Assembly (NCBI GenBank): GCA_000002445.1
Contig: CP000070.1
Coordinates: forward strand, 1,824,001-1,888,000
From: Trypanosoma brucei
Taxonomy: Eukaryota
DNA: 64,000 nucleotides
Direction: 5' to 3'
Shown: one piece after another, positions 2,951 to 64,000 of the stretch
Numbering within the stretch: the first letter of the stretch is position 1
Layout: every line of letters begins with the position of its first letter
Position numbers and translations under genes: made by a program
The notes under the pieces: generated by a model
Databases searched by the model: none
What the model was told of the DNA's origin: nothing
The model's input: the letters and a program-made list of their open reading frames with translations, nothing else

Positions 2951-2955
2951 GCCTA

Positions 2956-3052
2956 TGGAAAAAAGCGAAACAAAAAAAAAAGCGGCAACAACAATAACAA
3001 AAATGAAAGCAACCAAAAATGAGTTGCTACTGGCGCTGCGGCCTAAAAGACC
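2956..3052 (-). promoter_or_regulatory. Candidate polypyrimidine tract and trans-splice acceptor region upstream of the left-edge gene. The plus strand is A-rich here, so the minus strand is T-rich
   Basis: Plus 2960-3020 is dominated by A and AAC runs (aaaaaaaaaagcggcaacaacaataacaaaaatgaaagcaaccaaaaatg). This gives a U/C-rich tract on the transcribed minus strand immediately 5' of the first ATG. Kinetoplastid trans-splicing uses such tracts. Confidence 0.3.
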
Positions 3053-4507: not shown

Positions 4508-5564
4508 GGAATGTATAAACTTATGAGTAAATAGATAATAAAATAATGTGTACGGACAATTTTACTTGTGGTCGGTGGTTTTAATTACACGGTGGCGCCT
4601 TTGATTAAGTAACTAAGCGCACGAAGGGAAATCTCTTCACACGGTTTCTTTTTTTTTCCTTCTCGCCACTTCCTTTCCTTCGTTTTAACGTGTCAGTCAA
4701 CTCCCCGTTTAAACGAGCTGCGGAGACACGTAATAGAAGCTTGCGTGAATGACCCTTGTACTCAAGTGTAGAGCTAAGAAGCGTGCTCGTTGGCGCTCTA
4801 AAAAAAAAAAATTACGCCTCCACTTTGCTACTAGCAGCACGTCTCACTGTGCCCTTTTTTTTATTTAAAAAATCTTTTTGGAGGAAAAATCAGTTAAAGG
4901 TGGTGAAAGAATCAACGGCAGAGGGCGATGTATTTTTGTTTGACGTGCTTCGCATACGCACACACACGTGAACCTTGGTCACAAGTGGGAGAAGAACTTT
5001 AAGTGGATGACGGACATGTGTGCAACCTTCGGCAGTAAAATTATAACCTCAAAATAAATGGGTGTGCTTCACTCTTAGCGACGTCACCGCCAACAAAAAG
5101 AACACACGCACAAGCGCTACACCCCACCTCACGCCTTCCCATCGACGAAAAAAAATGTTCGTTGGGCACAAACATTAGTGTACACTTGCGTACACACCAA
5201 CATGCGCACACTTATTACTCGCAGACATTATCGTGGCGCACAACTTAAAAGCAGGAAGAGTGAGAGAGAGAGAGGTGTGTGTATATATAAATATATAAGT
5301 AAATGTTACATTCCGCCTCCGGCCACCCTACAACCGAGAGAGTGAAAACAACCAGACAAAGAGTAGGTGTGGCAAGTGCACACTCACACAAACATACAGC
5401 CCCATTCCAAAGCGCTCCACCACACAATTAACGTTAACGTCACCTTTTCCCTTTGGTACTTCCCCTTTCAGTCCTTCGTTGCCGGAATCTGCCTAACCTG
5501 CAAAGACGAAAGCACTCAAACTAGGCCACCTACGCAATCACCCAACAATATTGAGTCAAAGTAA

Positions 5565-8500: not shown

Positions 8501-11500
8501 CCGCGGCCCCGTCAGGATGGTTGACCTCAGTCCAATACGTAAGCACCTCCGACCCGCGCAGTGTACCACGGACACATTTGGCAAGGAAGCTCTCCATCAC
8601 CTCCCGCTCCTGATGGTGATCGTGACTACCTTCTCCCTTTTGACCAGCATATGGATGTGAAGACGTGGCGTGAAGAAAACTCGCCATGCGCCCTGGCTGA
8701 CTTCGGTCCAAGTGAAAGACGACGTCCACCGACCTGCTACCATTCTTCATTCCCGCCCCCCTGTCTGTCGCATTGCTCCTCTCCCAGTGCATATACGTCC
8801 TTTCACTAATATCCAACTCGGAGGCAACAATATCAGCAACGCCCAGCTGACCAAGCAATGGCCGCATTGCCCGATCCTCACGCACGAGGGTGGAGGGGTT
8901 CATAAAAGGCAAAAATTTTGACAGCCCATCAGATGCCTCAGCAGCAGGACGGGAGCGGAAGCGAAACCATGACGAATCCTCAGCCGACCCACCAACGCTC
9001 CAGGTAGAAGCCCCCTCAATCACTTCGCTCGGTACAAAATCCCCCCCAGTGTGATGGCATGGTTGTGACATGCTGAGGTGCTCCTGGGCGAGGAAAAGGT
9101 GATGCGATACCTCTTTCGACTGCAAGTGATGTTCTGTTGCTATGACAGTAAAGGAAATGCACTGTCTTGAGTTATCAACCTTGATGTCGGACCAGCGCGT
9201 GGTGCGTGCAACCCACCATGGTAACGAGCAGCCACTGGCCGTAAGCCGCTCAGCACTACTCTTAATAGAATTCTCAAAGTCACCGGGTGCGACAAGGTGC
9301 ACACCCAAATTCGACGACGAGGGCTTCTCCTGGGCCGCTACAGCATTAGAGGAGCTTGCTGGTTTAATACCTTCCGCATGAAGGCAGATAGAAAAGCGAC
9401 CGCGTCCAGAGTACGCGTCGCATTCGTGATCTAGTGTGGTATTCACTGAGAGAAATGCAGAAACACGCTCAATTGTCAGCAGTCGCTGTTGTACAAATGG
9501 GCAACGTTTCCTCAGCATAGCCCCAAACAACCGAGGTGATGCGTGAAGCTCATACTGCAAATGGGTGGTGCCAACCGGAAGATTCCCCACGAATAAGGCT
9601 GTCTCCTCCGGTGCATCTTCCGACCTTCCACTATTGTTCCCTCCGCCACCAATACCGCTTGTAGTCTGATTTTTATAGACGCGACCGACTCGTAAGGTTG
9701 GATCGCGAGCTGACAGTAAAGCTGACGCCCTACGGTCAGCGGGCTCTACGAGCACCCAGCCTAATGTTGAGCCCGTGATGAGCATCTCAACACTACTCGA
9801 CAATGTCACAAGGCGAGTTGTGCGAAGGTTTTCCGTTAAAACCAGCAGCCGCACCGTGTCATAATCCACCAAAATACCAGGTTGACCCTTCTGCCTTCGT
9901 TCATCGTCATCCGTTGTGCGTGCGCTGGCATATACGGACCAGCGTACGGTGACAATACCAAACGGAAGCCCCTTCACCACAGTGTGGGGACTGCTAACAT
10001 CCTCAAACTTAATACCACTAAAGTTCGTCTCGTCTGTCAGCGTAATGTTGTCCGCCGTTTGCACTGACACCACTTCCCACCTCGTAGTAAAGCTACAATT
10101 AATGGCTTGTGGTAGTGGGGCCGCGGTGAGTACAGCCGTGTCCCCACATACAGTCAACTCATTCTCCAACACTCGTGCGTGTGTCACATGCAAAGTTTCG
10201 GTGACGGTGACGTTGGGGCACACGTTGGGATGGACAGGATCAAGGTGCTGGTGAGACAACGTGTACATTCCTGGAACTCGAATGTTATTCAGAAGGACAG
10301 TCGCACCACCGGCACCGCGAAGGATCGCACGGGGGTGCGGTTGACGCAGCGGGATAATCTGTATCGAATCCAAAAGCCGCTGCGTACCGACTGAGGTGGT
10401 TTCCGCCGGCACGACAGTAACTGCCCGCCACTGCGATGTGCGACCATCAGCTGGAGCGTCAACATGCAAAACGGCACGCTTCCCTACAATCCAATGTGTT
10501 CTCATTCCGGCTGCCGAGCTTTGGTGCTTACCCAGCGGTTCTCCACCTTCTTTTCCTGCTGTTGTGCGTGATTGGGACCCAAAGGAATTACTCTGTCGTC
10601 CAGAGCGCCGCATCGGGCAGTTACCAGGGGCCCAATTGTCGCTCAACACACTGAAGTTCAAAGTTACGGGCGCCGGATGTACACGCTTTAGCATAAATGT
10701 CTCGGACTCCAAAGTTTCGGTTAGTGCATTGTACACTGTGAGTTTGCACGGAGTAGCACCCGCTGAACCTTGATACAGAATTGAAAACGTTGGGCTGCGC
10801 TTCTCCACCATCATCACGCCATCAGCAGTATTGCTGTCAGTGCTGGACCGCCCAGTAGCAGTATTTTCACACGTCCATGTAAAGTCGTAGTGGTATTTTG
10901 TGTGGAGCCACGGATGACGAGAAAAGTTAAAAGTGGATTCGCAGAACGCGATGTCGCGCACACCAATCACATCCACCAAACCACGTGGGTTGAGGGCAAG
11001 AAACGAAATATTCCCGGGCCGCGAAAGACACATTCCACGGCGCGCAAACTCTGCAGCAGCGCCCTTCCGAGAAGGCAGTTCAGCCGCTGCGGCAACGGCA
11101 GCTAAAGACAGTCGTACATTATACTGAAACGGGTAGTTCGAGCTGTTACTGAGCCCATGAAGCTGCATATATTGTCCTGTCTGCGAGTTGTTGTGTGAAA
11201 AGCGGGCATCACATTCACGATCAATGTTGTAATCGCGGTGGTGTCTTTCCATCTCCCAGTACGCTGCTTCGTCACTAAATATACCTTCATTGTTATCCTT
11301 CCCATTGGAGCCGTGTTCGTGCGAGCCACTGACACCAACAGTGGGTGGGCGGACGAAGCGGCGAAGCAGCAACGGTCCAGCAGTGGTGGCAGCGGCGCTA
11401 TCGTCGGGATCGGTGAAGGTATTGGGTTCGTCACTCTTCCCACTTCTATCGTCACTTACCGCAAGCCCTGTCCGTGCAAAGTGACTTGCCGTCACGTGCA

Positions 11501-14500
11501 GCTGATGGGCAGCATCATGTTCGTAAGCGAAATCCACCTCGTAATCTCCTTGTGAACCGGAATAGTTGAAAGTGTAGTGAACCGCAGCAGCGTACCCTGC
11601 GATAGGGATGACGCGACGCGCGAAATAACGCGGTTGTGCCTCGTGATGCACCATAGTTTCGTCAGTGGTGTTACTGTTGTCGCCACTGCGAGTAACGGTA
11701 TGTTGGCTCTCATCGCCTGTTGTGATACCACCATCCAGCCACTCCACAGAAGGCAACGCAAGCGTATCAATGGGTGACCCACTACCACGTCTATCCCCAC
11801 CGCTGAATTTATGAAACAGCAGATGTGGTGGTCGCTGACAGCGTCGCAGCGAAAACGTTTGTGTAACACTCCCCACCAAATTGCGTGCACTCCACATGGC
11901 TTCACACCACCGGTCCACCTCGACACCACATACAACCACTAAAGCATCAGCCGAGCCATTATACCCCTTCGTCAAATCTACTTTCTGTTTTTCCTTGGAG
12001 AAATATGGTGGAGCTGAGGCCTCTTGGCAGGGGCGGATGTCCCAGCGAACCTCCTCATCCTTCTGTGGTTCCCGTGGCGGTGACAGCGCAACACAACCGT
12101 CCTCCGTGTACACCGGCACGAACTCTGGCGCGACAGGTGGTGCAGGGACGGCAACGAGAGAAACAATGTACTCTACAACGCGTGGGGGACAGCGTGATGT
12201 ATAAGGGGCAGCTAGTAACTTATCCTGCACCGCTTCTCCCGGATCCTCCGCTATGAACTGTAGCGTCCCCTCTGGTAGCACTTGCCGAATGTTGGGTACA
12301 GCGGATGTGTTCAGTTCCGCGGCGTAAGTCTCGTCGACGGATATCAAGCTGATTGGAGGGTTGACAACCCACCGGCCCGTAATCTGTATATCTGTGTCTT
12401 TATCCCTCTCATCTAAGCTTTCCTCATGCTGACCAATTACAGGATGCGGAGGACGAACGGTCAACCGACGTTCATGCATCGGTAGTTTGACGTCAACCCT
12501 TCTAGGCAAAGCAGACATTCGGCGCACAATGAGGACCGACGGCGAGCGTACCTCAATAACTGTGAGCCTCCCATCAGAAGAGATAACACGTGAAAGCGAG
12601 GGATCGAGAAAGCCTCCAAATGGTCCCTCATTATCATTGTCATCATCAACAACATCACTTCCCTGACGTTGCCGCAGTTGCTCGATGTGCTGTAGATATG
12701 AAGTATCCACTTCAACACGCACGACCCACATCAGCTCCGCTACCCCCCGCTTCAACATCTGCAATACACCGAAGTGGCTGCCTCCCATTCCCGTAGCGAT
12801 CCGACAGGGGCCAACGCCGCTTTCAGTGCACTTAAAGTGCCCCTCTACAACCTCCTGTGTACCACCCGACCGGGCCAAATCTTCCCATGGCAAATCCCCC
12901 GCGAGACGTATAAGCATCCGCTGCCGAGACCGCATCGTCTCTAACAGCCCTCTAAGCTCAAACGCCTCTAGCGAAATCCTGTCATCACAAACTGTAACTG
13001 GAGAAGTGACCGGCTCCAGTAGCAATGCCTGGACCGCCCACAACTCCTGCATCTCCAGTAGCACCGGCTCACACACCTCGTCCATGTCACGCACGTAGTA
13101 CGACAGTACGTTGCGGCCAACGGTAAGCGGGTACCAAACAAACGCTTCGGAGAATGGGTTGTGGGGTACATGGGGTGGTGAACCATCGCTCCCACGCACC
13201 TCATCGCTGGTTTGTGTACGGATCCAATACCCGGTATGGGATGGGCGCCCTTCATCAGGTAGCATGGCAAACGCTTGTTTCAGCTCTTCTCTTTCACGCG
13301 TGATGCGTGAAAGACGCAAGCGCCGGCCGACGCCAAAGTGAGGTTGTGTAACGTTAGAAAACTGCGCTGCTTTGCCTTCCAGTGTAAGAGGCAACCGTAA
13401 AACGAAAAGGCCGCTTAAGGTTTGCGTGGCAGCGCCACGAGAAACTGTTACCATCACGTTGTAAGTATGGTGCGGTATGACACTGAAGTAGCCGCTGGTG
13501 GTTATCTGTGGTTGAACCATTCCAGAGCCTTCCACCTCCTCTCTTAGTGCGGTATACAGGGAGACATTAAGTACAGCATTGGCTGCCCCTGTTACTGCAG
13601 TGGTATCTGTGATAATCCAATGCACGAGTGTTGCTGGAAGCAGTGCCGGTTGTAGAGTGAGAGACGCCGCCCACCCACCGTTGGCTAACTGTATAACAGG
13701 CTGACGAAGGACCTTCCCTTTAACATCCATTTCGGGTGTCACACTTCGGAGCTTTTGTCCCACACCACAATGCGATCCCAACCCAACTATAGATATTGGT
13801 GGTAGTGTGTCTGGCCGAGCGTGAAGCACAGGCATTACAAGCAGCGTGTGGGGGCACTTGCACTTTATTGCGACGTTAGAGACCCTGAGCTGGATATCGG
13901 CGGACGTACCGACAGCACCATCGACAGCACTGCCACTACCAACGCTACTATTACCAGTACGGGAACCGAGAGGCATGTCAAAGCCCCCACGGAGACCCGA
14001 AAGGGGGAGATTTAACGCAGTGGTTGTTGGCGGCTGTTGGAGCGGTACGCGACGAATGCCAGGCCCGACAGCACCGGTCACAAGCACAATTACGTCACCA
14101 TCACCATCATTACCCCGCTGCATCTCCTCAGCGGAAGGCACATGTGAACTTTCGTAACGGTGTGGCGGCTGTCGCTGAGTGTCAAATATAACAACCCTAT
14201 CACGGGGAAACATCCTCCGCTTCTCCCCAAGAGTTAAGGTATGAAACGGCGTGGACCGCAAGAGATCGTACAGGAAAGTATCGTAGCGAGATTGTTCCCG
14301 TAGCAACCGCCCGTTGAACTTATAACCGCAACACAAATTCAACTGAAGCGTGAGGTTGGCTGATACAAGGAAGCTTGCCGGCGTGAGTACGTCAGGGGCC
14401 GTGAAGGTTCCTGTGGCCCACACCATAGAGGCATGTGGACAGCCGTGATGTACCGAACATGGGGAAGATGAAACATTCGGCACGAGAAACTCGGACGATT

Positions 14501-49442: not shown

Positions 49443-51319
49443 ATGTACCGGAACGATGTTGTGAATTACCGTTTACAACGTAAATAAACAAATGTATAAG
49501 CTGAATTGTGCTTTCGGCCACTACTCGTCAAACGGTATCGGTATTACCTTCCGGAGTGCGATATATATCCTTATTTATTTTTTTTTTGCTCCTTTGTCGT
49601 TTGGACAGTTTATTTTTTAAAAAAACGAATGTCAAAAAGGAATGTACGAGCGATACAGCACCAGTATGATGCAATGAGAATGAAATGCATATATATATAT
49701 ATATATATGCGTGACAGCAATTTCAATGACAAGTGAAACGGTGGATCAATAAAATCGGATTCAAACTCCTGAAGAAGGGAGTTGAAGGAGTTTGGCGCAA
49801 CGCCCATCAGGAATACACGAAGCGAGTGAAGGAGCAAACAAAGAAAAAAACAGGAGCGAGTTTGTGGGAAATTTTGAAAACACAAGAGAATCAGCAAAAT
49901 GGAGTGGTGCTACACAAATGAATCGGGACCAAGAGAAATGTGAGAAAAAAAAGCAAATAACAGAACAAAAATTCAAGGAAAAGCAGCTCCCAGTTGTTTT
50001 TGTTTCGGTTATTTGTCGTTGTTTTATTTCATTACGCACCTCGCCTACTCTTCTCCCCCATACCCTCCCCTTTTTTTCTTTCTCCCCCTTTTGGTTCCCA
50101 GCCACTTTTTCACAAATTAATTTATAGGCTATTTAATTTAAACATAATTTGATTCTGAAAGTGGACAACAAAAAAAATTAAACAAACAAACAAGCAAATA
50201 GATCAATCAACAAATAACTTAATGAAACAATGGAGCAAAGCAAATAACAAAAGCGGCGGGAAATTAAAGTTACCCCATGGTGGTAGCGAGCACATGCGTG
50301 ATATATACATATATATATATATACCTATTCATTTGCTTACATTATTCACATATTACTTCATTTAAACATAGAAAAATAAATGAAGTTATGTATACACACA
50401 TTTTTAAAGGCAAAAATAAATAAAACGGGGATGGGGATAGGGGATCAAGGAGTTGTGGGGTCGGCTTTATGAATCACACTCAAGAAGGCACACACAAATA
50501 ATAATATGGAACAAGAGAGAAAAGGAACATAGCAGGAGAGGGGGAAGTAAATATAAAGCAAAATAAATGAATGGTTTTTTATTATTTTCCTATTTTCAAC
50601 GGAACCTAACATCACCACATACGCACACGCTCCACGCTTTTGCTCTGAGTTAAAAAAGACGCAAACGCATGTCCTCTTCTCGTCTTCCTCACAATTACAC
50701 ACTTATGTCACATTTCAAACTTTATCCATTCGAGAATTTGTCATGTTCCCCTTTTATGATATAAACTGATCCGCTACCCGCTTCCTTCACAATTAAATAA
50801 ATATATATATATGTGTGTGTGTATGTGTATGTGTACGCGTATGTATCCTTCCCCTTATTGTCGTCGCCATCATATTTTCTCTACTTTGTCTTGTTTCCTA
50901 CGTTTCCTCCTCCCTAATCATCATCATCATGACGATGAACGAGAGGAGAATTCATCTACACTTATATCACACAGACACACACACACACACATACACACAG
51001 AGGCACACGAACAAATATATGTGTACCTGAATGTACATAAATACAAATATGTGAACACGCAACGTTACGAGCATATGAGTGTATAAGTAAGGCACAAGCT
51101 CACCAATTCACCACACATTTTCCCACCATCAGTTACAGTTTCCTCACACATATCCTTCTTTAATCTAGTTTCGCCTCTCCAGCTTCCTTTCCTCTCTGAT
51201 TATCCCTCCCTCTCTTTTCTTCTCAGCCCCCTCCAACTACTGCCCCTCAATACGCGCACACACATATATACAGATAAACATGTAAATATGTACATCAAAA
51301 AATTAGAACACATTATATA

Positions 51320-51367
51320 AATGTATATATATATAGAGAGAGAGATAGATAGAGATGCATATATATG

Positions 51368-51390
<23 letters not shown>
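51320..51390. repeat. TA-rich microsatellite block, including (TA)n and (GA)n
   Basis: atatatatatagagagagagatagatagagatgcatatatatgtatatatatatatatatata read directly. Confidence 0.7.
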
Positions 51391-51399
<9 letters not shown>

Positions 51400-52708
51400 C
51401 ATTTCGTTTACACGTCTACTGGCGCGGGTGAGCGCCGGTTATCGCTTCATTCGGACTCGCACACCCCAGAAAAGAAAAGAAACATGAACGGTGCCTTCCC
51501 TCCCTATTTTCCAACCAAAATCCTCAACAATATTATCATTATCATTTCTCGTTTGTTTACACTTCCCATTATCTGTTGGTATCACCCTTTACACTATTGC
51601 TTTACCAGTATTCCCTCACCTTCACCCTTCACAGACATATAATACGCATATCTTTCCGAAAAGGAAGAGCTTGCCCCCGCTCGTTCACCGACCAAGTGCG
51701 GCTTTTCTTTCACTTTCGTCCATTTTTTTTTTGATAGTTATTTTGGTTCGGCTCCGTTTACAAAAAAAGTTGGAAAAAGAGAGAGACAGAAGGTAGGAAG
51801 TGACCCCCTCTTCTCTTCCCTTGAGTGACTGGTTGGGTTATGAAGACAGTACACTGGAGGCGAATAAATAGATAAACGAAAGTTCCCATCAAAAAAAAAA
51901 AGTGTCAAATTCGATCCCACATGCGGACAGAGAGGATAGAGAGAGTGGCACAGGTTTTTTAAAAAATAGTAACAATAATGGTAATTGTGATGGTAATGAT
52001 GATGGTAATGGTAATGATAACAATAATAACCACAAACGAGGCAAATGGGCGTGATATAACAATGAAAGGGATAACAAAAATAAACTGAAAGTAAAACAGG
52101 TGAACAGGGGAGGACATAAATGGGTGGAGGTCAAAACGTTAATGAACCACACCGAAAAAATGTAAAAAAAATCCTTGAGAGAACCGATCACACAAATGTG
52201 ACACAGCACAAAGTTACTCTTCCCCTTTAGCCACGCGCTCCGCTGGGGACATGCCGCTGTATTTTGTTTAGTTTTGGCTCCTCGTTGCTTGTTTTCTTTT
52301 TTTCCTGTCTTTTTCCCCTCCCACATGCACCGCCGAAACTGACTACCAACCCAAAGGGAGAAGAGAGTTGAATATAAAAGAAATACTTCCCCTGTTCGAA
52401 GCAGGGAAAATGGTAAATCGTCATCATTATCTTCTATTTTCATTTAGTACCCACATCCCCCCTTTTTCTATCTTCTCGCTCATCATTTCGCTTCCTTCCT
52501 ACTTATACCCTCGTCGCTGCTCTACACTGCGTTGCGCCACTTCCAGTGAGCATGACATCAAAACACACAACATAGCCAAATCCTCGTACCACCATGCCAT
52601 CAGCTCTCTATATGTATAGATGTGCGTGTATGCGATGCAAACACATTCTGCCTACTGCAGGCGAATACCGCCATCCAAAAACTCCTCTCAAACATTTCCA
52701 CTTTGCTG

Positions 52709-55053: not shown

Positions 55054-56190
55054 TCACGCCTTTGATTTCTTTTTCTCCTTCTTCTTCCGCGGTTCCCCTC
55101 CACCCTTACCCGCAGACTCGGAGCTAACCTGGGCGGTGCTCAACATAAGTTGACCCATCTCATTCGCCGCCTGCTCATACCGTTTTGAGATAAAGCAATC
55201 TGGCTCAAAGCGTCGCATCCACGCACCTAGCACTCCCGCAACCTCCTTTGCCGCACTCTCCTTGAAAAGGTCCTCGTGTCGCTGGCAGCACTTCACCACA
55301 GCAGGGCGCCTGTGGCCGAAAACTTCACTGTGAGCTGCCGCGTCCGACAGCGGGTTAGCAGAGGGAACAATCAACTGCACGGGATGCCGAACACCCAAAA
55401 GAGACTTCAGTGGCACGTACCGGCTTTCGTCACGCACCAAACCCCCTGCGCCGAAAATTCTGTTAGGGTCGAAGAGGTAGTCACGGTACAGGGACTCATC
55501 CTCAGCAGCCGGACAGGGCAGCGGCCCTTCAAGGGAAGAAAGAAGAGCTTGTTTTGCAAAGGCCAAACCATCTTCCGGAACATTGATGTCCCTCTCTGCC
55601 TTGGCAATGTCCTCCCGCTGCTCCATGTTACGTAGAAGCTCACGAGTTACTAATGGGGTATCTAGAGACATTAGCGTCCCAACGCGGTGGGGAAACTCCT
55701 GAGATGACGCCATTCGCACCGCGACGAGGGCACCATAAGAGTATGTCAAGAAATGCGTCCACCGCACGTCGAGCGCGTCCATTACGGCACATATGCGCTG
55801 GCAGGACTGCTCCAACAAGTCCTTCGACGAATCTGTACACTGGGCATGTAGTGGGATATACACTGCGCCATAGTCCCATGAAAGTTGGGAAAGGATTGAT
55901 TCGTACTTTCTTGCCGCCTCCGCAACCCCCGCTTCCCCTTTAGTGGAATGATCAAGAATTATAAGGGGACGGGGGCCCAGGCGCGCTCCATGGTACATTA
56001 ACATCTGCGGCAGCAACTTCCTGCGCGAAGCTCCCACGCAACGTGCCTGCCACGGCTGAATAGAGAAGGGCGTGAAGCTTGCGTGTTGCTTGTGAGCAAC
56101 CTCTGGTCCATCATTCACCAGCCCCTCTAACATCTGCCCACCACCAGTTGTTGCTGATGCCACATGGTGAAGGGTCCGCGCCAGCCGCAT
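55054..56190 (-). CDS. Putative alpha/beta-hydrolase-fold protein (378 aa from the first ATG) with a basic KKKEKKKSKA C-terminal tail
   Basis: The track start at 56223 is GTG. The first ATG is plus 56188-56190 (MRLARTLHH...). LTYSYGALVAV fits the [GAST]-x-S-x-G nucleophile-elbow pattern of serine hydrolases. Strand-like segments precede it (RPLIILDHSTKG; AVYIPLHAQ). This is a motif-level inference only. Confidence 0.55.
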   Translation of the reverse strand: MRLARTLHHVASATTGGGQMLEGLVNDGPEVAHKQHASFTPFSIQPWQARCVGASRRKLLPQMLMYHGARLGPRPLIILDHSTKGEAGVAEAARKYESILSQLSWDYGAVYIPLHAQCTDSSKDLLEQSCQRICAVMDALDVRWTHFLTYSYGALVAVRMASSQEFPHRVGTLMSLDTPLVTRELLRNMEQREDIAKAERDINVPEDGLAFAKQALLSSLEGPLPCPAAEDESLYRDYLFDPNRIFGAGGLVRDESRYVPLKSLLGVRHPVQLIVPSANPLSDAAAHSEVFGHRRPAVVKCCQRHEDLFKESAAKEVAGVLGAWMRRFEPDCFISKRYEQAANEMGQLMLSTAQVSSESAGKGGGEPRKKKEKKKSKA

Positions 56191-56568
56191 GTCGGATCCA
56201 AACCAGCAGCAAGTTGACCCCACAGCAGCGAATACCAGGTTAGCTCCAGCCCCTGCACAATTCCTCCTGGAACAGCCTCAAACCCTTCCTCTTGCTTCCC
56301 TTATATCCGGAACCGCTGCCAAAGGTAAAAGGAAAGAAAAGTACCTGAAGCAACGCAGTACATGCTTATCGCAAATAGGAAATGAATTTTACTGGACGGG
56401 GGGAGAGATCATACAGGGGTGCACTATTACGTCCCCAACCTTACAAACATCGATTGACCTTCGACAACAGGGGACTGGTATGGTCCCTTTGACACAAATA
56501 ATGCTGGCCCTATACGACCACAGTAGCGAGGGCACGTGTAGTTGGTTCACCACACCAAACGCAAGACG

Positions 56569-57089
56569 AGTGAAATGCGCTAGTCCTTCCACACGTCCAC
56601 CCACCTGAGACCTACAGCTCAGCACAAACCACGGAAGTTTACAGCGCTCCATTATACTGGCGGAACACGGTCACAGGACCAAAAACACACCGTAAAGAAA
56701 GACCATCGGTCAGGCCCACGCAATTCTAACCCGGTCCCACACACACACACCCATAGCTCCTGCTAAACGTAGAAAGCTGGAAAATTAGGCACCCCGCTTC
56801 TCAATAACAAGGAACCAAACAAGCTTTCAATGCATAAGAGGAGCCACGAAACAGTAATGTAATCCGTCACGTCAGCAATACACCACACGTGGAGGAGTCA
56901 CAGCTCAACCTTTCCCCGCACACAGCGTCCATTGCAAGAGCCATACTCAATACACTCCGCCTGTGCATGCACGTATACATCCGTATGGCACCTCGTTAAC
57001 AATACATAATTTCCTACCCTTTCGACGCATGCAACGGAAGCACATGGATGTCTACAGAGGGGAAAGTTAAGGAAAGATCAATAACAACG
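56569..57089 (+). repeat. Copy 1 of a 521-bp direct repeat, downstream (3') of the PP2A B'' gene and upstream (5') of the hydrolase-like gene
   Basis: The stretch from agtgaaatgcgctagtccttccacacgtccacccacctgagacc to ggaaagatcaataacaacg was compared base by base with 60877-61397. Offset is 4308 bp. No mismatch was seen across the 521 bp. The flanks diverge immediately at both ends. Confidence 0.9.
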
Positions 57090-57847
57090 GAAGTGCGACG
57101 AACATAGAAGCATCTGTTATTCGTGTCATAATGTCAATATCGACTACCGTCCCCCTCCCCAAAAGTCACCTGCAAACGGGAAGGTCTGGGGCAACTAACA
57201 AAAGAGGGAAGTAGAATTACTGAGTGAAAACTAACTCTCTCCTTTAGCGAACACTCGTAATACACTGACAACTATGCCATAAACCTCTCAGGACACACAT
57301 GTGAGCCTGGTTTAAGCATCAGAGAAAACTACCGAAACACGCAACAAGCCACGGATCCCCCATTACCTACAGCTATAGAGTCATGTGTATATTCGGGAAT
57401 GGGGAAGCAGAAAGAGGAGAATTAAAGCGGGTGTTGCAGAATAAATGGTTGACTGGTGAAGTGTACACAACCGAATACTATATTATTACACCTCAGGGTC
57501 AAATCAATGATGAAAAGGCATGTAGACATGCGTACATATATAAGCAAATTGAGGAAAAAGATTTTTAGGCACATACTCTTCCATTAGTACTAGTTCTAAT
57601 CGCATTTATATTAGTTCCCACTCCCTCTCCGTTTTGCGGTGCAGATTACTGGGTACAGAAATGCACCTTCTCGGAGGTGCAAAGAGCGATAAGCGCAACA
57701 GGCAGTAACCTCACAGTTTCGACCACAAATTCAAGAGAGGAAGGAACACCGCCCGGCAGCCCATTTCATCCCATTCCAACTTGGCACACCCATTCAACTC
57801 CATTAAAACAGCAATACGCAATTACTGAAGTACCTTGGTGAAAAACA

Positions 57848-60778
57848 TTATTCGTTTGCGGCAACCTGAGCCATACGGTCGTACTCCGCTCGAGCAAAAC
57901 GATCCCAGTGTGTCCGTTCCAAGCCACAAAGCAGCCGGTCCTGGTGTGCTACAAGCGGGTCCTTCTGTTCAAACTGTAGAAGACGCACCACATTTGTCAG
58001 CATGTTCAGTGCCGCGCCGGCTGCCTCGGAATTCGACAGGAGGTCATGTAACGTGATCCCACAGGACACAGTAACACCAAGCATATCAAATATCTGGCAC
58101 ACAGCGTCCTCAAAGGGTATTCCCCCCTCTGGTACGTGCTCCAATATGATTCTTCTAGTCTCATCGTAAAATCTCTGCAGCTCGTACAACGAAAGCACAC
58201 CATCACAATCAAGGTCAAGTATGCTAAACCAGTAGCGTACCGCTGTGGGGGTTGTTTTGTCCTCCTCAGAGAGGCAAAACCAAACAAACTCTTCATAATT
58301 TATTCTATCCTTTACGGCAGATTTCGATCGCCGGCCAAGACCATTAAATATGCGGTCCACTATTATGGGATTCATGACACCATCTGGGGTATACTTTACA
58401 AAGTCCTGTCGGGACAATAACATGTCGCGGTCCGTGTCCAGCTCCCAGAAGCGACAGTAGAGCACATAAAAGTGTTCGTAAGAAAAATAATGGAAGACAG
58501 AATTGATGTCATCCGCCACATCAACTTGGCGGAGGGAATCTATAAGAGCAGAATCTTCCATCTCGGCATAGGTAATCCGTCCGCGGTTGAAGCGGTCGAG
58601 GTCGTAAAAAATGCGGTAGATGACGGTCTCCATGTACCTGTTCTGAACGTCGGGAGTCTGCTTCAGAAGGGCGAGCCCCGGGTGATGATCCAGAAGTATC
58701 CTCAGATAGCCGCGGAAATCCTCCGGTAACAAATAAGACCGCGGGGACGCCGAGTGGGGCGTAGAAGCGCAATTGCTGCCTGCTCCAACTGCCGATCTGC
58801 AATTGTGCTTGCCGGTAGAGGAGCTTAAAAGAAACAATTCAAACACACGGCGCACAATAGAACGACCACGCAATGAACTTTCAAAGAAATCTAAAACCTG
58901 CTGGACTGTGATAGGTGCCTGCGAACTGCACGTGGCCGTTACAGCTGAAGAATATCTAGATAAGGGAGAGCAAACATCCGGAGCAGCAAACATGCCCATG
59001 GCATCACTATCGCCAGTCGCCCGCAAGATCTTCATTATCATAAAAGCAAAGTACTTCGGGAGGCCAAAGCATTGTGTACAAATCCTTTGCATTGCCTGCG
59101 TTAGTTGGTCGTTGTAGTTTGCACCTTGTTTTGCCAGAGTGCCGTTGCTGACACAGAACCCTCTTACTTGTGGACCAACAGAGGGGCGGGAACTTTGAAT
59201 TGTTTTGGGTGGCATCGGGATTCGACTAAGCTCCCTTTTGACAAACAGTGAAACATTTTTGTCCTCTAACGCCCTTAGGGAAACTATGACTACGTTCTTG
59301 TTACCTCGCGTCGCCGATCTGCTATTCGCCCCAGCACCCTGCTCGGCAGCGTTTTTGCATGCAGCTGCGGGGATCATCATCCCCTCGATCACCTTGAGGT
59401 GTGGGTTTTCGTGTTTCGTATAAGTAACTCCTACTAGTGTTTCCTCACTGGTCTTCGGCACACCTTTAGGAAAATAAAAAGGTGGTATATCCCGATATGA
59501 TGCTCCCCGAAGGGTGGAATCTTTCGGTTGACCACTACGTTGTCTCAAAAATAAGTTCGGCGACGCACAGCCATCATCTTTCGCTTCTGGAGGGGTTGGC
59601 AACCTCGTCGCATCAAGGGGAACACTTTCAGACCGCTGGGCAGGTGGGGAATGCACCGGAGGCTGTTGGGGAGGTCCATTTGGGACCCTACTTTGCTCAA
59701 AGGCATCCTTCACCCGATCCTCGTAACCTTCGTCCCATCCCGCATCCCGTTGCAGCTCTTCAACTTCTTCCTCACCAGCCGCGCGTGTTATGTCAGTATT
59801 AACGAGCGTGAAGTAACCCGATGACGGTGACAGTGATGTGGGTGGTCCCGACCTACCGCCGCAAGCGCCATGCGGCGTGGTGCCCGAGCCCCCCTCGACC
59901 TTCTCTAAATCATCAGGTGACGTCTCCCGTAAGTAGAAAGCTTCATCACCGGCTTTAGACGGCGTCGCACTAGCATCATACCTTATACCAGCTTTCTGAA
60001 GAAACTCGGCAATCAATCCTTCAGCTACCTCAGCAGTTGATTTCTCACCCATCCAGTACTCCAAGAGCTCAAGCACTTTTATTCCAACACCACCCTGCGA
60101 TTGCCCGTTCGCACAAATCATACGACTTTGAACCCCATTTATCTGTTGAGGCGTCAGCGAGGCGGAAATAAGCAGTGGCAGGTCCGCGGGACCTCCAACA
60201 TCAGCTGAGGTCTGGCCTGCAACACCGGAGTTACTACCAATCGCGCGAGAATTCGGAGCGTAGAACGTGTAATGAAGCGACGAAGCCCCAGCAACAGGTG
60301 CAGAACCGCTACGAAAGTACGTACCCAGTTTAGTCCCTATATCTTGAGGGTGACCAGTTTCCTCCCATTCCGCCATATGAGAGCCGTATGCGCAATGGTC
60401 TGAACCATGTTCGCCACTGACAAAGTCACTAGTAACTCCACTGCCCACATTGGAATAACCGCGGAAGAGGTTGCCGTCTGCACCAGTGCGGTAAGATGCA
60501 CCACGCCTCCATTCAGGAGAGCTACCACGACTAGGAGGCGTCTGGACCCTTTGAAGATCCCAACGAGATGAGTAACTTAATGGTGATACTTCACCACTAA
60601 CAAACTCGCCCGGGAGAGCAGAACGAATGCTACTACTGCGGCCTTGACCATTCACAGTGTGTTCAACCCTGTCATGAGTAGCCACACTCTCACCTCCAAC
60701 TCCCCGCCGCAAGTCTACGGGGGAGGTACCCCATGCACTAACTACCCTTTCATTTTTCATTACTTGCAGCGGCTCCAT
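57848..60778 (-). CDS. Protein phosphatase 2A regulatory subunit B'' (PR72/PR130-like) with an EF-hand region, 976 aa, including a long S/G/P-rich N-terminal extension
   Basis: ATG verified (plus 60776-60778). The C-terminal half contains YWFSILDLDCDGVLSLYELQRFYDE, which closely matches the PR72-family EF-hand region. Flanking segments are conserved-looking (EHFYVLYCRFWELDTDRDMLLSRQDF; INYEEFVWFCLSEEDKTTPTAVRYWF). The N-terminal about 450 aa is low-complexity and disordered. Confidence 0.75.
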   Translation of the reverse strand: MEPLQVMKNERVVSAWGTSPVDLRRGVGGESVATHDRVEHTVNGQGRSSSIRSALPGEFVSGEVSPLSYSSRWDLQRVQTPPSRGSSPEWRRGASYRTGADGNLFRGYSNVGSGVTSDFVSGEHGSDHCAYGSHMAEWEETGHPQDIGTKLGTYFRSGSAPVAGASSLHYTFYAPNSRAIGSNSGVAGQTSADVGGPADLPLLISASLTPQQINGVQSRMICANGQSQGGVGIKVLELLEYWMGEKSTAEVAEGLIAEFLQKAGIRYDASATPSKAGDEAFYLRETSPDDLEKVEGGSGTTPHGACGGRSGPPTSLSPSSGYFTLVNTDITRAAGEEEVEELQRDAGWDEGYEDRVKDAFEQSRVPNGPPQQPPVHSPPAQRSESVPLDATRLPTPPEAKDDGCASPNLFLRQRSGQPKDSTLRGASYRDIPPFYFPKGVPKTSEETLVGVTYTKHENPHLKVIEGMMIPAAACKNAAEQGAGANSRSATRGNKNVVIVSLRALEDKNVSLFVKRELSRIPMPPKTIQSSRPSVGPQVRGFCVSNGTLAKQGANYNDQLTQAMQRICTQCFGLPKYFAFMIMKILRATGDSDAMGMFAAPDVCSPLSRYSSAVTATCSSQAPITVQQVLDFFESSLRGRSIVRRVFELFLLSSSTGKHNCRSAVGAGSNCASTPHSASPRSYLLPEDFRGYLRILLDHHPGLALLKQTPDVQNRYMETVIYRIFYDLDRFNRGRITYAEMEDSALIDSLRQVDVADDINSVFHYFSYEHFYVLYCRFWELDTDRDMLLSRQDFVKYTPDGVMNPIIVDRIFNGLGRRSKSAVKDRINYEEFVWFCLSEEDKTTPTAVRYWFSILDLDCDGVLSLYELQRFYDETRRIILEHVPEGGIPFEDAVCQIFDMLGVTVSCGITLHDLLSNSEAAGAALNMLTNVVRLLQFEQKDPLVAHQDRLLCGLERTHWDRFARAEYDRMAQVAANE

Positions 60779-60876
60779 GTAAACAAAAAAAATAAAGAAG
60801 CAGGGATGATCGATGTATGCTAGTTAGGATATGAAACAAACGTCCTTGTTCGGATCATATTTTAAAAGGATATGCC

Positions 60877-61397
60877 AGTGAAATGCGCTAGTCCTTCCAC
60901 ACGTCCACCCACCTGAGACCTACAGCTCAGCACAAACCACGGAAGTTTACAGCGCTCCATTATACTGGCGGAACACGGTCACAGGACCAAAAACACACCG
61001 TAAAGAAAGACCATCGGTCAGGCCCACGCAATTCTAACCCGGTCCCACACACACACACCCATAGCTCCTGCTAAACGTAGAAAGCTGGAAAATTAGGCAC
61101 CCCGCTTCTCAATAACAAGGAACCAAACAAGCTTTCAATGCATAAGAGGAGCCACGAAACAGTAATGTAATCCGTCACGTCAGCAATACACCACACGTGG
61201 AGGAGTCACAGCTCAACCTTTCCCCGCACACAGCGTCCATTGCAAGAGCCATACTCAATACACTCCGCCTGTGCATGCACGTATACATCCGTATGGCACC
61301 TCGTTAACAATACATAATTTCCTACCCTTTCGACGCATGCAACGGAAGCACATGGATGTCTACAGAGGGGAAAGTTAAGGAAAGATCAATAACAACG
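60877..61397 (+). repeat. Copy 2 of the 521-bp direct repeat; it ends about 100 bp upstream of the PP2A B'' ATG
   Basis: Apparently identical to 56569-57089 (see copy 1). Confidence 0.9.
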
Positions 61398-62353
61398 CCT
61401 TCCAACGATCATTGAGACTGGCTATTACAGTTACCGTGGATGCATAAGTGCATTCGTCCGAACGTTCCTCACGATGACGGGGAACAGATGAGAACATTAG
61501 GCTCGTCACTGTGTCCTGAGGGGAGCTGACTGACCATAAGCATTTATTAACTTCTCCGAGGGCATGCGACAAAGACGCGAACAGGTCATCCTTCATAGCA
61601 GTCTATTATGCCTGTGGAGTGCAGTCTATTCATTCGCAAGTAACCAACCAACTTACGCGGAGCGAACAGGTACCATGTGGACACGCAGACTTTGGGGTCT
61701 CAGAAGGTGCAGTGGAAGATTAATAAACAAGTACAAGTGTGAAAACATAAAATTACGGCGTAATGGAACAACGGCAAGCAAGAAAGCAGACATAATTCTT
61801 GAAGTCACCTAACACCCCCCCCTCTACAAGCCACTTGTTGCACACATAAATGAGGTACAATGTTAACGAGCATATGCTCAGCAGAGTACCGCGTTACGAA
61901 GAAAAGGGAAGGAAATGTAAGTACCGAAATTCAACTCTTACTGCGGACCTAGGGTAATACCTCGAGCAGAAAAATTATGAAACAAAATGTAACGGAGGTT
62001 AAAGACAAATCTTTAAATGTGTTGAAACAAAATAGTCACAGAATAATTTTTAAAAAAAGCATGCCTGTACGTGCGGGTGTCCCACGCATATGCGGTGGCA
62101 AACATTAAGCACAGCAACTTTCGTCAGGCACATGTAAAAATGATGGGTCATCATTCTTCTTGTAAGGTGGAGTCCATCAATGAGTTCTAGTACGTGATAC
62201 TGACGTAAAAATACTAGCATTAACGAAGGGCAAAGTAACTGTGCTATAGAAAATTAACCCTGTCGCACGCTAAGTCCCCGTGCGAGATATAGAAACCGTC
62301 TGTCTTCCTTTCCACGTAGCTTCTGGAACGGTAAAATGTGGGTTTTGGTAATC

Positions 62354-63999
62354 ATCTCACCTGGCGCTCGGCGGGCAACCGATATGTCTTAATGTCCCTA
62401 TCAAAGTGCAGTACGATTGACATGCGGCAGCACGCGCACACGTCGACAACTGCACCTCACCAGCGTGTCAGTAACACAAAACGTCAACAGCACAAAAGAT
62501 TTTTCTCCACAAGCACATAAGGTTTCCCATCGGCAAATCTGAACATCTAACAGAAAGAAATTTTGCCCGCTTTGTACATGGCTGGATGCCCTCCACTTAC
62601 TAACCTGTTCTCTATTAAGAGAGGTTGGCGTCAAAGAATGTCTCAAGTCTCAAGAGCATCACGTTTGGTTGTGAAGAACAAAGTCTGCAGTAACCTTGAG
62701 TGCATCCAAAAAACAATAGCTGAAAGGATCCAAACGCCAACGCCACCAGTTCCAAAAATAATGGCTGATCACACTAAGTGTACGCGGACCCATACAGTTA
62801 ATCTACAAGTCAATTTTGTCATCAACAGAGTGCCGTCCTGTAAGTACCAAAGAAAGTGTGGTACAGGTAATTTCAACCTACAATATGAATTTCTTTTCAA
62901 AACTTCACACCTACGCAGCTGCGAAGTGCAGCTGCCCGTTGAATAGACATATGCGCACGCACACACGAAAAAACAAAAAGACTCCCCGACTGCTTCACGT
63001 GGGTTACGATGGAGGTCCATCCCTCTAAACTGTACGACTGGAGCACCCAGTACATCCGCTTCAGTATCATCATGTGACACTTGAGAAAAAGAGTACGGGT
63101 GTCAGTGCCCTTAGTGAGCACAGAAAGAAAAAGAGCACAACTCTCAAGGCAACCGCATGATTGATACGCAGATTGATGAGTGTCGGAAACGAAAAAAGGT
63201 GTTTGAAATCAAAGGGGGCAATCCATCCTCAGAGCTTGTTTCCACCTACTAAAGGGCGATAAAGCCGTTCTGTGCAATGAGTCTCTTCAACGTATAACAT
63301 CAAAACTCAACATTAACGCGTCGTCCTTGTTAGAATTACTAACGATATATCTCACAAACTAAAACCTAAGTTTTTGGCTCACGTCGTGCCGCGGTAACCA
63401 GCAGAGAGGATGTGCACGTGTACGCACAAAAGTGGGAGGATGGTCCAAATATAGGGGGAAAAACCATACGTGACAAATTTTTAACCCCAACCTACAACCT
63501 TGGAAATAGGACAAGGTGTTGCACACGCATCAACACTGCCCCTATCATCCAAGTCAGTGGGTCACAATGCGTCAAGTAATGCCACGCTCTCAGAGAGGGG
63601 TTATGGCTTACGAACTCAGTAACGACAGAAATGGTGTCAAGCATACGTCAACTTTCCATTCCATCAAACACCGACTCAGTAATTTTTTTTCAGCTCCTTA
63701 AATATTGCTCTTCCACGGGTGGGCCAACAATACACTCTATACAACAGCCTTTACCACCGATTTGACCTCCTCAATAAGTGTATTTCTCTAGTTCCCGAGA
63801 GGAAAATCTTGTATTGAACCGGGCGTTCCACCGACTGTCCCATCTACCATTTACATTCATGATCCACTTCTTCTGTAATATTATGCCCTCCTCCGCTCCA
63901 TTCGGTATTTCATGCTGAGAACCACATCAGACCGTATGTGTGAAGGGCTCAGAATACTATGAACACACCACCACTGCAATTGGGTGTTTTCGCCTTGGC
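62354..63999 (+). mobile_element. Candidate degenerate non-LTR retroposon remnant (ingi/RIME/DIRE/L1Tc clade). Its 5' end is in the window and the body runs off the right edge
   Basis: cctggcgctcggcgggcaaccgatatgtcttaatgtccctatcaaagtgcagtacgattgacatgcggcagc at 62354-62430 resembles, from memory, the conserved roughly 77-79-nt 5' signature shared by trypanosomatid ingi/RIME, L1Tc/NARTc, DIRE and SIDER elements. The downstream 1.6 kb is complex, not low-complexity, yet has no ORF longer than 127 codons in any frame. All six frames are closed within 100 nt of the right edge. Degenerate elements of this kind often sit at the boundaries of directional gene clusters. The call is recollection-based. 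Confidence 0.3.
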
Positions 64000-64000
64000 C

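What the first reader, a model, noticed from the sequence alone, without database searches (positions are those of the whole stretch)
56569..61397. Apparently perfect 521-bp direct repeat bracketing the PP2A B'' regulatory-subunit gene
Two copies of a complex, non-low-complexity 521-bp segment sit 4308 bp apart at 56569-57089 and 60877-61397. I saw no mismatch between them in a base-by-base read. Copy 2 lies 100 bp upstream of the PP2A B'' ATG. Copy 1 lies about 350 bp upstream of the hydrolase-like gene's ATG and about 760 bp downstream of the PP2A B'' stop. So two consecutive genes of the array share the same upstream sequence. Full identity of noncoding DNA over 0.5 kb implies very recent duplication or gene conversion. 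One possibility is the footprint of a tandem duplication in which one gene copy was replaced. Another is a duplicated 5'UTR/trans-splice cassette. It is also a ready substrate for homologous recombination that would loop out the PP2A B'' gene. The repeat contains an internal (CA)7 and no obvious ORF.
Basis: seen in the sequence. Interest (0 to 1): 0.6.

Follow-up and report, generated by a model that had tools for sequence, protein, structure and literature searches.

The report
Homogenised direct repeat flanking PP2A B'' gene
Two identical 521-bp noncoding segments really do bracket a phosphatase-regulator gene on Trypanosoma brucei chromosome 7; they are an old duplicate kept identical by gene conversion, an example of a known class of low-copy intergenic repeats, not a recent duplication or a shared 5'UTR.

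Summary
Window 56569-57089 and 60877-61397 are 521/521 identical, have sharp edges, and are the only long repeat in the 64 kb. The window is T. brucei TREU927 chr7 (v4 coordinate minus 1,824,000). The bracketed gene is Tb927.7.6810 (PP2A B''-like).

The pair is not recent. T. b. gambiense has both copies, identical to each other, and each differs from the window copies at the same 7 sites. That pattern indicates gene conversion. T. vivax has a ~210-nt, ~98.5%-identical direct repeat in the same two intergenic regions at similar offsets, with no detectable sequence similarity to the T. brucei unit. T. cruzi and T. theileri lack it.

Published end-mapping (Kolev 2010) puts the PP2A B'' splice acceptor downstream of copy 2. 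Copy 2 forms the 3' part of the unannotated transcript Tb7.NT.85. Copy 1 lies in the long PP2A B'' 3'UTR. It is therefore not a shared 5'UTR cassette.

I found no Rfam hit, no unusual fold, no conserved ORF and no reduced substitution rate. It meets the criteria I could test for the low-copy intergenic repeats catalogued by Ubeda 2014 (773 in T. brucei). Interest is modest. The positional conservation in T. vivax is the only unexpected element.

The parts
60877..61397 (-). Repeat copy 2 (upstream of PP2A B''). Read in the sense of transcription, it begins with a polypyrimidine tract plus AG (61397-61360).
   Evidence: 100% identity. (sequence).
56569..57089 (-). Repeat copy 1 (between the PP2A B'' stop and the hydrolase gene).
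57848..60778 (-). Tb927.7.6810 CDS as annotated (976 aa, PP2A regulatory subunit B'' EF-hand protein). This is the unique segment bracketed by the repeat.
   Evidence: (PF17958). Its coordinates match Kolev Table S3.
60772..60774 (-). Mapped trans-splice acceptor of Tb927.7.6810. The AG is at 60774-60773 and the first mRNA base is 60772. It lies 103 nt downstream of copy 2 and inside the annotated ORF.
   Evidence: Kolev 2010 Table S3, transcript 5' end 1884772. The AG is seen in the sequence.
56410..57847 (-). Long 3'UTR of Tb927.7.6810 (flagged 'alt 3UTR'). It contains all of copy 1.
   Evidence: Kolev 2010 Table S3, transcript 3' end 1880410.
60885..61698 (-). Unannotated trans-spliced, polyadenylated transcript Tb7.NT.85 (813 nt). 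Its 3' 513 nt (61397-60885) are copy 2. The major poly(A) site is 8 nt inside the repeat's 3' edge.
   Evidence: Kolev 2010 Tables S7 and S13. An AG lies directly upstream of 61698 in the sequence.
55054..56190 (-). Tb927.7.6800, alpha/beta-hydrolase-like gene downstream of copy 1.
   Evidence: Poly(A) sites 1878680/1878646 in Kolev Table S13.

Best explanation
This is a locus-specific, low-copy intergenic direct repeat of the kind catalogued across trypanosomatid genomes.

Origin (inferred): one noncoding segment of a few hundred bp was copied between the two intergenic regions that flank the PP2A B'' gene, in an ancestor of the salivarian trypanosomes.

Maintenance (inferred from the sequence pattern): the two copies have since been kept identical by recurrent intrachromosomal gene conversion. 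They drift freely in sequence between species.

Why both copies persist (inferred, not tested): crossover or single-strand annealing between the copies would delete PP2A B'', so only non-crossover conversion products are seen.

Transcription (shown by published end-mapping): both copies lie in the same Pol II polycistron in the sense orientation. Each ends up in the 3' part of a mature RNA. Copy 2 is in the transcript Tb7.NT.85. Copy 1 is in the long 3'UTR of PP2A B''.

Function: no sequence-specific function is needed to explain the data. The pair is a standing substrate for pop-out or circle formation of the PP2A B'' segment.
For: 1. Concerted evolution. In T. b. gambiense DAL972 the two copies are 100% identical to each other. 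Each differs from the window copies at the same 7 positions (sense positions 50, 54, 111, 269, 330, 347, 374). Without conversion, about 7 paralogous differences per genome would be expected (P of zero is about e^-7).
2. No extra constraint. Repeat divergence between the subspecies is 1.34%, against 25 mismatches in 3837 nt (0.65%) for pooled flanking noncoding DNA. The 32-codon ORF after the internal AG carries 3 of 3 nonsynonymous differences, by hand translation of the positions.
3. Same architecture in T. vivax. The only repeat of at least 60 nt in a 22.9-kb syntenic locus is a ~210-nt direct repeat (2 mismatches and 2 small indels). It ends 126 nt before the PP2A B'' ATG and 410 nt before the hydrolase ATG, against 98 and 378 nt in T. 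brucei. A second T. vivax strain carries copy B with a mosaic of A-type and B-type variants.
4. Absent from the syntenic loci of T. cruzi and T. theileri.
5. Transcript context comes from Kolev 2010. The coordinate mapping is validated by exact CDS matches and by AG dinucleotides immediately upstream of three reported 5' ends.
6. The class is known. Ubeda 2014 describes low-copy, chromosome-specific intergenic repeats of 0.2-2.5 kb at 85% identity or more, conserved in synteny. They count 773 in T. brucei and detected rearrangements by PCR at four tested T. brucei loci, none of them this one.
7. Independent assemblies behave as expected for a true A-R-B-R-C structure.
Against: - Common origin of the T. 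brucei and T. vivax pairs rests on position only. No sequence similarity is detectable between the units or their flanks.
- T. congolense could not be tested. The contig ends inside the gene, and the neighbouring proteins are not indexed.
- Genome-wide copy number of the unit could not be measured with these tools.
- Essentiality of PP2A B'' was not checked (one search failed).
- Persistence across salivarian trypanosomes is long for a purely neutral 0.2-0.5 kb pair, so selection for the pair cannot be excluded.
- RNA-seq reads inside a perfect repeat were assigned to one alignment per read. Coverage and the 60885 poly(A) site cannot be attributed to one copy.
Confidence: 0.62

Rival explanations
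1. Selected recombination platform. The pair is maintained because it allows stochastic excision, circularisation or copy-number change of the PP2A B'' segment, as proposed for Leishmania repeat pairs.
For: Direct repeats bracket exactly one gene. The architecture is conserved in T. vivax although the sequence has turned over. Ubeda 2014 detected rearrangements at T. brucei repeats by PCR. A T. equiperdum contig has the A-R-C join lacking PP2A B''.
Against: No copy-number variation or circle has been shown at this locus. The T. equiperdum join is equally explained by a collapsed assembly loop. [quoted passage not shown] The pair is absent in T. cruzi and T. theileri.
Confidence: 0.13
2. Shared functional RNA module. 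The identical ~0.5 kb in Tb7.NT.85 and in the PP2A B'' 3'UTR binds the same factors, so the upstream transcript co-regulates or competes with the PP2A B'' mRNA. Alternatively, the unit is a duplicated small noncoding-RNA gene that runs from its own polypyrimidine-AG to a poly(A) site.
For: Both copies lie in mature polyadenylated RNAs. Read in the sense direction, the unit starts with a polypyrimidine tract plus AG and ends 8 nt after a mapped poly(A) site. Tb927.7.6810 is listed as having alternative processing within its 3'UTR. The architecture is conserved in T. vivax.
Against: No Rfam hit in T. brucei or T. vivax. The fold is no more stable than shuffles (z = -0.91). There is no cross-species sequence conservation. 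The substitution rate is not reduced. In T. vivax the polypyrimidine tracts lie outside the repeat, and copy A lacks the AG. Tb7.NT.85 appears only in Tables S7 and S13, so it is absent from the conserved-ORF, peptide-supported and putative non-coding lists.
Confidence: 0.12
3. Independent, relatively recent duplications in the T. brucei and T. vivax lineages, with no long-term concerted evolution.
For: No sequence similarity between the two species' units. The lengths differ (521 vs ~210 nt).
Against: Within T. brucei the pair predates the subspecies split, yet the copies are identical in each genome. In each species it is the only long repeat in the locus. It occupies the same two intergenic regions, in the same orientation, with similar offsets. 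I put the chance of that coincidence roughly well below 1%.
Confidence: 0.07
4. A dispersed mobile or retroposon-derived element (RIME/SIDER-like) that happens to have two copies here.
For: The length (~0.5 kb) resembles SIDER and RIME. In L. tarentolae the same PP2A B''-hydrolase intergenic region carries a member of a 3-copy repeat family.
Against: No poly(A) or A-rich tail, no target-site duplication, and no microhomology at the edges. Only two copies in the 64-kb window, and the same two copies in the 23-kb gambiense locus. The T. equiperdum assembler could thread A-R-C, which argues for few contexts. No similarity to the Leishmania repeat.
Confidence: 0.04
5. Assembly artefact (false duplication).
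For: Perfect identity is what a copy-paste error would give.
Against: Both copies are present in DAL972 with 7 shared differences. The T. equiperdum contig ends 32 nt inside both copies. Analogous pairs are found in two T. vivax assemblies.
Confidence: 0.02

Closest known systems
Low-copy intergenic repeated sequences of trypanosomatids ('Repeat Alignment Groups', Ubeda et al. 2014, PLoS Biol, PMC4028189)
   Same: Noncoding, intergenic, 0.2-2.5 kb, at least 85% identical, on the same chromosome, often only two members, conserved in synteny between species. Direct pairs bracket genes and can recombine. 773 such repeats are reported for T. brucei.
   Different: This pair is not individually described there. 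The four tested T. brucei loci are different ones. Shown here and not there: 7 of 7 shared substitutions between subspecies, indicating concerted evolution; positional conservation in T. vivax with complete sequence turnover; and the transcript context.
Concerted evolution of tandem gene arrays in trypanosomes, and recombination between nearby paralogues (FRDg/FRDm2 and AQP2/AQP3; Wargnies et al. 2021, PMC8065229)
   Same: Nearby direct repeats on one chromosome undergo homologous recombination in T. brucei. Near-identical tracts in the paralogous VASt genes of T. cruzi and T. theileri are most simply explained the same way.
   Different: Here the repeated unit is purely noncoding, and the intervening gene is single-copy and unrelated to its neighbours.
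3'UTR-internal and novel transcripts of T. brucei (Kolev et al. 2010, PMC2936537)
   Same: Copy 2 lies in Tb7.NT.85, one of 1,114 novel trans-spliced, polyadenylated transcripts. Copy 1 lies in a 3'UTR flagged for alternative processing.
   Different: Kolev et al. did not note that these two RNAs share 0.5 kb of identical sequence. Their mapping reported one alignment per read, so the two copies could not be told apart.
Leishmania SIDER retroposons in 3'UTRs
   Same: About 0.5 kb noncoding units located in 3'UTRs.
   Different: No A-rich tail, no target-site duplication and no dispersed copies seen. The retroposon 5' signature could not be tested.

Membership tests
Trypanosomatid low-copy intergenic repeats (RAGs, Ubeda 2014) | Located in noncoding or intergenic DNA | tested here: met
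   Both copies lie between annotated CDSs. Only short ORFs overlap them, and the longest internal sense ORF shows 3 of 3 nonsynonymous changes between subspecies.
Trypanosomatid low-copy intergenic repeats (RAGs, Ubeda 2014) | Length 0.2-2.5 kb with at least 85% identity | tested here: met
   521 bp at 100% identity. About 210 nt at ~98.5% in T. vivax.
Trypanosomatid low-copy intergenic repeats (RAGs, Ubeda 2014) | Low copy number, confined to one chromosome | tested here: inconclusive
   Only two copies in the 64-kb window, and the same two copies in the 23-kb gambiense locus. A whole-genome search is not possible with these tools.
Trypanosomatid low-copy intergenic repeats (RAGs, Ubeda 2014) | Conserved in synteny between related species | tested here: met
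   Present at the same positions in T. b. gambiense. The same architecture occurs in T. vivax. Absent in T. cruzi and T. theileri.
Trypanosomatid low-copy intergenic repeats (RAGs, Ubeda 2014) | Supports rearrangement (circle or deletion) between the copies | tested here: inconclusive
   T. equiperdum contig CZPT02001026.1 joins flank, R and hydrolase without PP2A B''. This could be a collapsed loop or a deletion allele. PCR or read depth is needed.
Shared 5'UTR / trans-splice cassette of two consecutive genes | The splice acceptor of the downstream gene lies within or upstream of the repeat, so the repeat is in its 5'UTR | tested here: not met
   The mapped 5' end of the Tb927.7.6810 transcript in Kolev Table S3 is window 60772, which is 103 nt downstream of copy 2. 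For the hydrolase gene, only the sequence-predicted polypyrimidine-AG sites are available, and they lie downstream of copy 1.
Retroposon-derived short elements (RIME / SIDER) | 3' poly(A) or A-rich tail and target-site duplications | tested here: not met
   The flanks of both copies were read directly. There is no A-run, no duplicated flank and no microhomology.
Retroposon-derived short elements (RIME / SIDER) | Conserved ~79-nt 5' signature shared with ingi/L1Tc | not testable with these tools
Known structured RNA families (snoRNA clusters and others) | Match to an Rfam covariance model, or unusually stable structure | tested here: not met
   No Rfam match at E of 1 or below in T. brucei or T. 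vivax. MFE z-score is -0.91.
Remnant of a tandem gene duplication | Detectable pseudogene remains of PP2A B'' or the hydrolase gene next to the second repeat copy | tested here: not met
   tblastn and sensitive blastn against the 2.8 kb upstream of copy 2 give only chance-level hits.

The most novel reading that the evidence does not exclude
The pair is retained by selection for identity itself, not for its sequence. On this reading a repeat cassette has been kept around the PP2A B'' gene since before the T. vivax / T. brucei split, while the sequence turned over completely. Its role would be one of two things. It could provide reversible excision or copy-number plasticity of a phosphatase regulatory subunit. 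Or it could couple the fate of an upstream noncoding transcript (Tb7.NT.85) to the PP2A B'' mRNA through a shared 3' module.
Probability: 0.12. Interest if true: 0.65.

Novelty: new member of a known kind. Interest (0 to 1): 0.33.

Why it matters
The pair gives a clean, datable example of noncoding concerted evolution in a trypanosome. The same two intergenic slots carry a near-identical pair in T. brucei, T. b. gambiense and T. vivax, although the sequence itself is unrecognisable between species.

If the maintenance is neutral, it calibrates how efficiently short-range gene conversion homogenises 0.2-0.5 kb repeats in these genomes. It also warns that perfect identity does not mean recent origin.

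There is a practical consequence. Short reads cannot be assigned to one copy, so published transcript models here (Tb7.NT.85 and the Tb927.7.6810 3'UTR) are partly ambiguous. Short-read assemblies drop or misplace the PP2A B'' segment, as in T. equiperdum OVI.

If the pair is instead selected, it would be an unusual case of a conserved recombination or co-regulation cassette around a signalling gene.

Tried and rejected
- Rfam scans of both species' loci found nothing.
- An RNA fold of the unit was no more stable than shuffled sequence.
- I searched for remnants of PP2A B'', the hydrolase gene or VASt genes in the 2.8-3.2 kb upstream of copy 2. There were none. The 'tandem duplication with one copy replaced' idea is rejected as unsupported.
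- I looked for cross-species similarity of the T. brucei and T. vivax units, of their flanks, and of either unit to the T. congolense, T. cruzi, T. theileri or L. tarentolae loci. There was none.
- I looked for residual paralogous similarity just outside the repeat edges in both species. There was none.
- The small-ORF reading is rejected. The 32-aa Cys-rich ORF after the internal AG has three nonsynonymous differences out of three and is not conserved in T. vivax.
- The T. congolense partner region could not be obtained. The contig ends within the gene, and the hydrolase protein is not indexed. The protein of the next gene downstream has no contig on record, so I did not look it up.
- Logan contig L006 (SRR16767846) is an unidentified trypanosome that lacks the upstream region, so it is uninformative.
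- Literature: no paper text mentions Tb927.7.6810, Tb927.7.6800 or Tb7.NT.85. Siegel 2010 and Guegan 2022 have no supplements held, and the Nilsson 2010 supplements do not list the genes. The nanopore lncRNA table has nothing at this locus. The Alsford 2011 RIT-seq paper is not held. Kolev Tables S4 and S5, which list all splice and poly(A) sites, are truncated before chr7.

Full report
**Observation.** The two segments 56569-57089 and 60877-61397 are identical at all 521 positions. The exact match stops at precisely those coordinates, and same-offset identity in the flanks is 16-35%, which is random. A self-BLAST of the whole 64-kb window returns this pair as the only long repeat. A sensitive BLAST of the unit finds only (CA)n microsatellite matches elsewhere. 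The internal microsatellite is (CA)6, not (CA)7.

**Where this is.** All large ORFs are on the minus strand, as in a trypanosomatid polycistron.
- The 976-aa ORF is identical to T. brucei TREU927 XP_846301 and to a T. equiperdum protein.
- Kolev et al. 2010 (PMC2936537) list Tb927.7.6810 with CDS 1884778..1881848, and Tb927.7.6780 with 1876443..1875889. These equal window ORFs 60778..57848 and 52443..51889 after subtracting 1,824,000.
- The window is therefore Tb927_07_v4:1,824,001-1,888,000.
- PP2A B'' is Tb927.7.6810 and the hydrolase-like gene is Tb927.7.6800. The ACBP gene Tb927.7.6770 lies two annotated ORFs further downstream.
- The mapping is corroborated by AG dinucleotides lying exactly upstream of three reported transcript 5' ends: 60772, 61698 and 62641.

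**Not an artefact.**
- T. b. gambiense DAL972 (L002) has both copies at the same positions.
- T. equiperdum OVI contig CZPT02000692.1 (L001, 3851 bp) equals window 60908-57058 at 100% identity. It ends exactly 32 nt inside each copy, which is the signature of a de Bruijn graph breaking at a true repeat.
- The companion contig CZPT02001026.1 (L010) runs from the upstream flank through a single copy, identical to the window's, into the hydrolase gene. It omits the PP2A B'' segment. That is what a collapsed A-R-B-R-C loop looks like. It could also be a real deletion allele, and I could not distinguish the two.

**Not recent: concerted evolution.**
- The gambiense copies are 100% identical to each other. 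Each differs from the window copies at the same seven positions (sense positions 50, 54, 111, 269, 330, 347, 374).
- If the copies had evolved independently since the subspecies split, about seven paralogous differences would be expected in each genome. Zero are seen in both. This is the pattern produced by gene conversion between the copies.
- Repeat divergence between subspecies is 1.34%. The flanking noncoding segments range from 0.46% to 1.32%, or 0.65% pooled. The unit is therefore not under detectable extra constraint.

**Deep positional conservation.** The syntenic T. vivax locus (L004) has the gene order VASt, PP2A B'', hydrolase, a 533-aa gene, ACBP.
- It contains exactly one repeat of at least 60 nt in 22.9 kb. 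This is a direct pair of about 210 nt (9667-9874 and 13457-13670) with two mismatches and two small indels.
- The pair occupies the same two intergenic regions in the same orientation as in T. brucei. It ends 126 nt before the PP2A B'' ATG and 410 nt before the hydrolase ATG, against 98 and 378 nt in T. brucei.
- A second T. vivax assembly (L007) carries copy B with a mosaic of variants, some shared with copy A of the first strain. That is consistent with exchange between the copies.
- The T. brucei and T. vivax units, and their flanks, show no similarity above shuffled controls.
- The syntenic loci of T. cruzi (L005) and T. theileri (L008) have no such pair.
- L. tarentolae has a different three-member repeat family in the neighbourhood, unrelated in sequence.
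- T. congolense could not be assessed.
- The most economical reading is a single duplication in a salivarian ancestor, followed by long-term homogenisation. This rests on position, not on sequence homology.

**What the copies are part of.** Kolev et al. map the Tb927.7.6810 transcript from 1884772 to 1880410, which is window 60772 to 56410. They flag the gene as having alternative processing within its 3'UTR.
- The splice acceptor is thus the AG of ATGGAG, 103 nt downstream of copy 2. Copy 2 is therefore not in the PP2A B'' 5'UTR.
- Copy 1 lies wholly within the long 3'UTR.
- The 3.2 kb upstream of PP2A B'' carries four 'novel' trans-spliced, polyadenylated transcripts, Tb7.NT.85 to NT.88.
- Tb7.NT.85 (window 61698 to 60885, 813 nt) has copy 2 as its 3' 513 nt. 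Its major poly(A) site is 8 nt from the repeat edge.
- A caveat applies. The study reported one alignment per read, so signal inside the repeat cannot be attributed to one copy.
- The anchoring ends at 61698 and 56410 are in unique sequence. Both copies are therefore very likely present in mature RNAs.
- Downstream of copy 1 there are good polypyrimidine-AG candidates for the hydrolase gene. Copy 1 is therefore predicted, not shown, to lie outside that 5'UTR as well.

**Search for intrinsic function.**
- No Rfam family matches at E of 1 or below in either species.
- The minimum free energy is ordinary (z = -0.91).
- Read in the sense direction, the unit begins with a polypyrimidine tract plus AG, followed by a 32-codon Cys-rich ORF. 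All three subspecies differences in that ORF are nonsynonymous, and the ORF is not conserved in T. vivax.
- Tb7.NT.85 appears only in Kolev's Tables S7 and S13. It is therefore absent from the conserved-ORF, peptide-supported and putative non-coding lists.
- There is no poly(A) tail, target-site duplication or microhomology at the edges.
- There are no pseudogene remnants of PP2A B'', the hydrolase gene or VASt genes upstream of copy 2.

**Comparison with what is known.** Ubeda et al. 2014 (PMC4028189) screened trypanosomatid genomes for intergenic repeats of 0.2-2.5 kb at 85% identity or more.
- In L. major they found 1,926 repeats in 507 groups. 242 of the groups have just two members. The groups are usually confined to one chromosome and are conserved in synteny between species.
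- In T. brucei they found 773 direct or inverted repeats and confirmed rearrangements by PCR at four loci, none of them this one.
- Wargnies et al. 2021 document recombination between nearby repeats in T. brucei.
- The present pair meets the length, identity, noncoding and synteny criteria of this class. Copy number genome-wide and rearrangement could not be tested here.
- I therefore file it as a new, individually undescribed member of a known kind.

**Verdict.** It is partly wrong: the pair is not recent, not a shared 5'UTR, and shows no evidence of a replaced gene copy.

The best explanation is an old noncoding duplicate homogenised by gene conversion, with deletion products presumably counter-selected (confidence about 0.6). 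The unexpected element is the persistence of the pair architecture in T. vivax despite complete sequence turnover. That leaves a minority possibility (about 0.12) that the pair itself is selected.

Noticed in passing
window 60760-60778: The annotated ATG of Tb927.7.6810 (60778) lies upstream of the mapped splice acceptor (first mRNA base 60772, AG of ATGGAG). It is therefore not in that mRNA, and translation probably starts at Met7 (60760). The gene is not in Kolev's Table S1 of misannotated starts.
   Followed up: partly
window 60885-64000 (continues to about 64190 beyond the window): A gap of about 3.4 kb with no annotated gene lies between Tb927.7.6820 and PP2A B''. It produces four 'novel' trans-spliced, polyadenylated transcripts (Tb7.NT.85-88). 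T. vivax, T. cruzi, T. theileri and L. tarentolae have VASt/GRAM-domain genes at this position. T. brucei and T. congolense have none, and no remnants are detectable.
   Followed up: partly
L002 1-4625 (T. b. gambiense chr7, just upstream of the window's high end): A 2.1-kb inverted repeat at 99.9% identity, each arm carrying a tRNA-Ala/Ser/Asp triplet. It sits at the start of the polycistron that Kolev Table S14 lists as 'next to tRNA'. It is a second near-perfect repeat about 5 kb upstream of copy 2.
   Followed up: partly
L010 (T. equiperdum CZPT02001026.1) 1619-5308, and L001: The short-read assembly threads upstream flank, one repeat and the hydrolase gene, and leaves the PP2A B'' gene on a separate 3.85-kb contig. 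This is either a collapsed loop or a genuine deletion allele. Anyone using that assembly would see PP2A B'' out of its chromosomal context.
   Followed up: partly
L005 6799-9375 (T. cruzi) and L008 535-2395 (T. theileri): The tandem VASt/GRAM paralogues upstream of PP2A B'' share 372-641-nt tracts at 99.5-100% identity. This suggests coding-region gene conversion in the same neighbourhood in stercorarian species.
   Followed up: no
L009 8362-8720, 14011-14558, 18524-19071 (L. tarentolae): A three-member repeat family (97-99% identical; one direct and one inverted partner) has one member in the PP2A B''-hydrolase intergenic region. It is unrelated in sequence to the T. brucei unit.
   Followed up: partly
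window 51889-52443: The 184-aa ORF is Tb927.7.6780, listed by Kolev Table S2 among annotated ORFs that produce no transcript of their own. Its translation is low-complexity, so it is probably not a gene.
   Followed up: no
window 50300-51400: AT-rich low-complexity stretch with (TA)n and (GA)n runs and imperfect palindromes, in the intergenic region upstream of Tb927.7.6770/6780.
   Followed up: no
L006 (Logan SRR16767846 contig, 2884 bp): Carries a hydrolase orthologue only 56-58% identical to those of T. brucei and T. congolense, with the PP2A B'' 3' end upstream. It comes from an unidentified trypanosome species in a public sequencing run.
   Followed up: no
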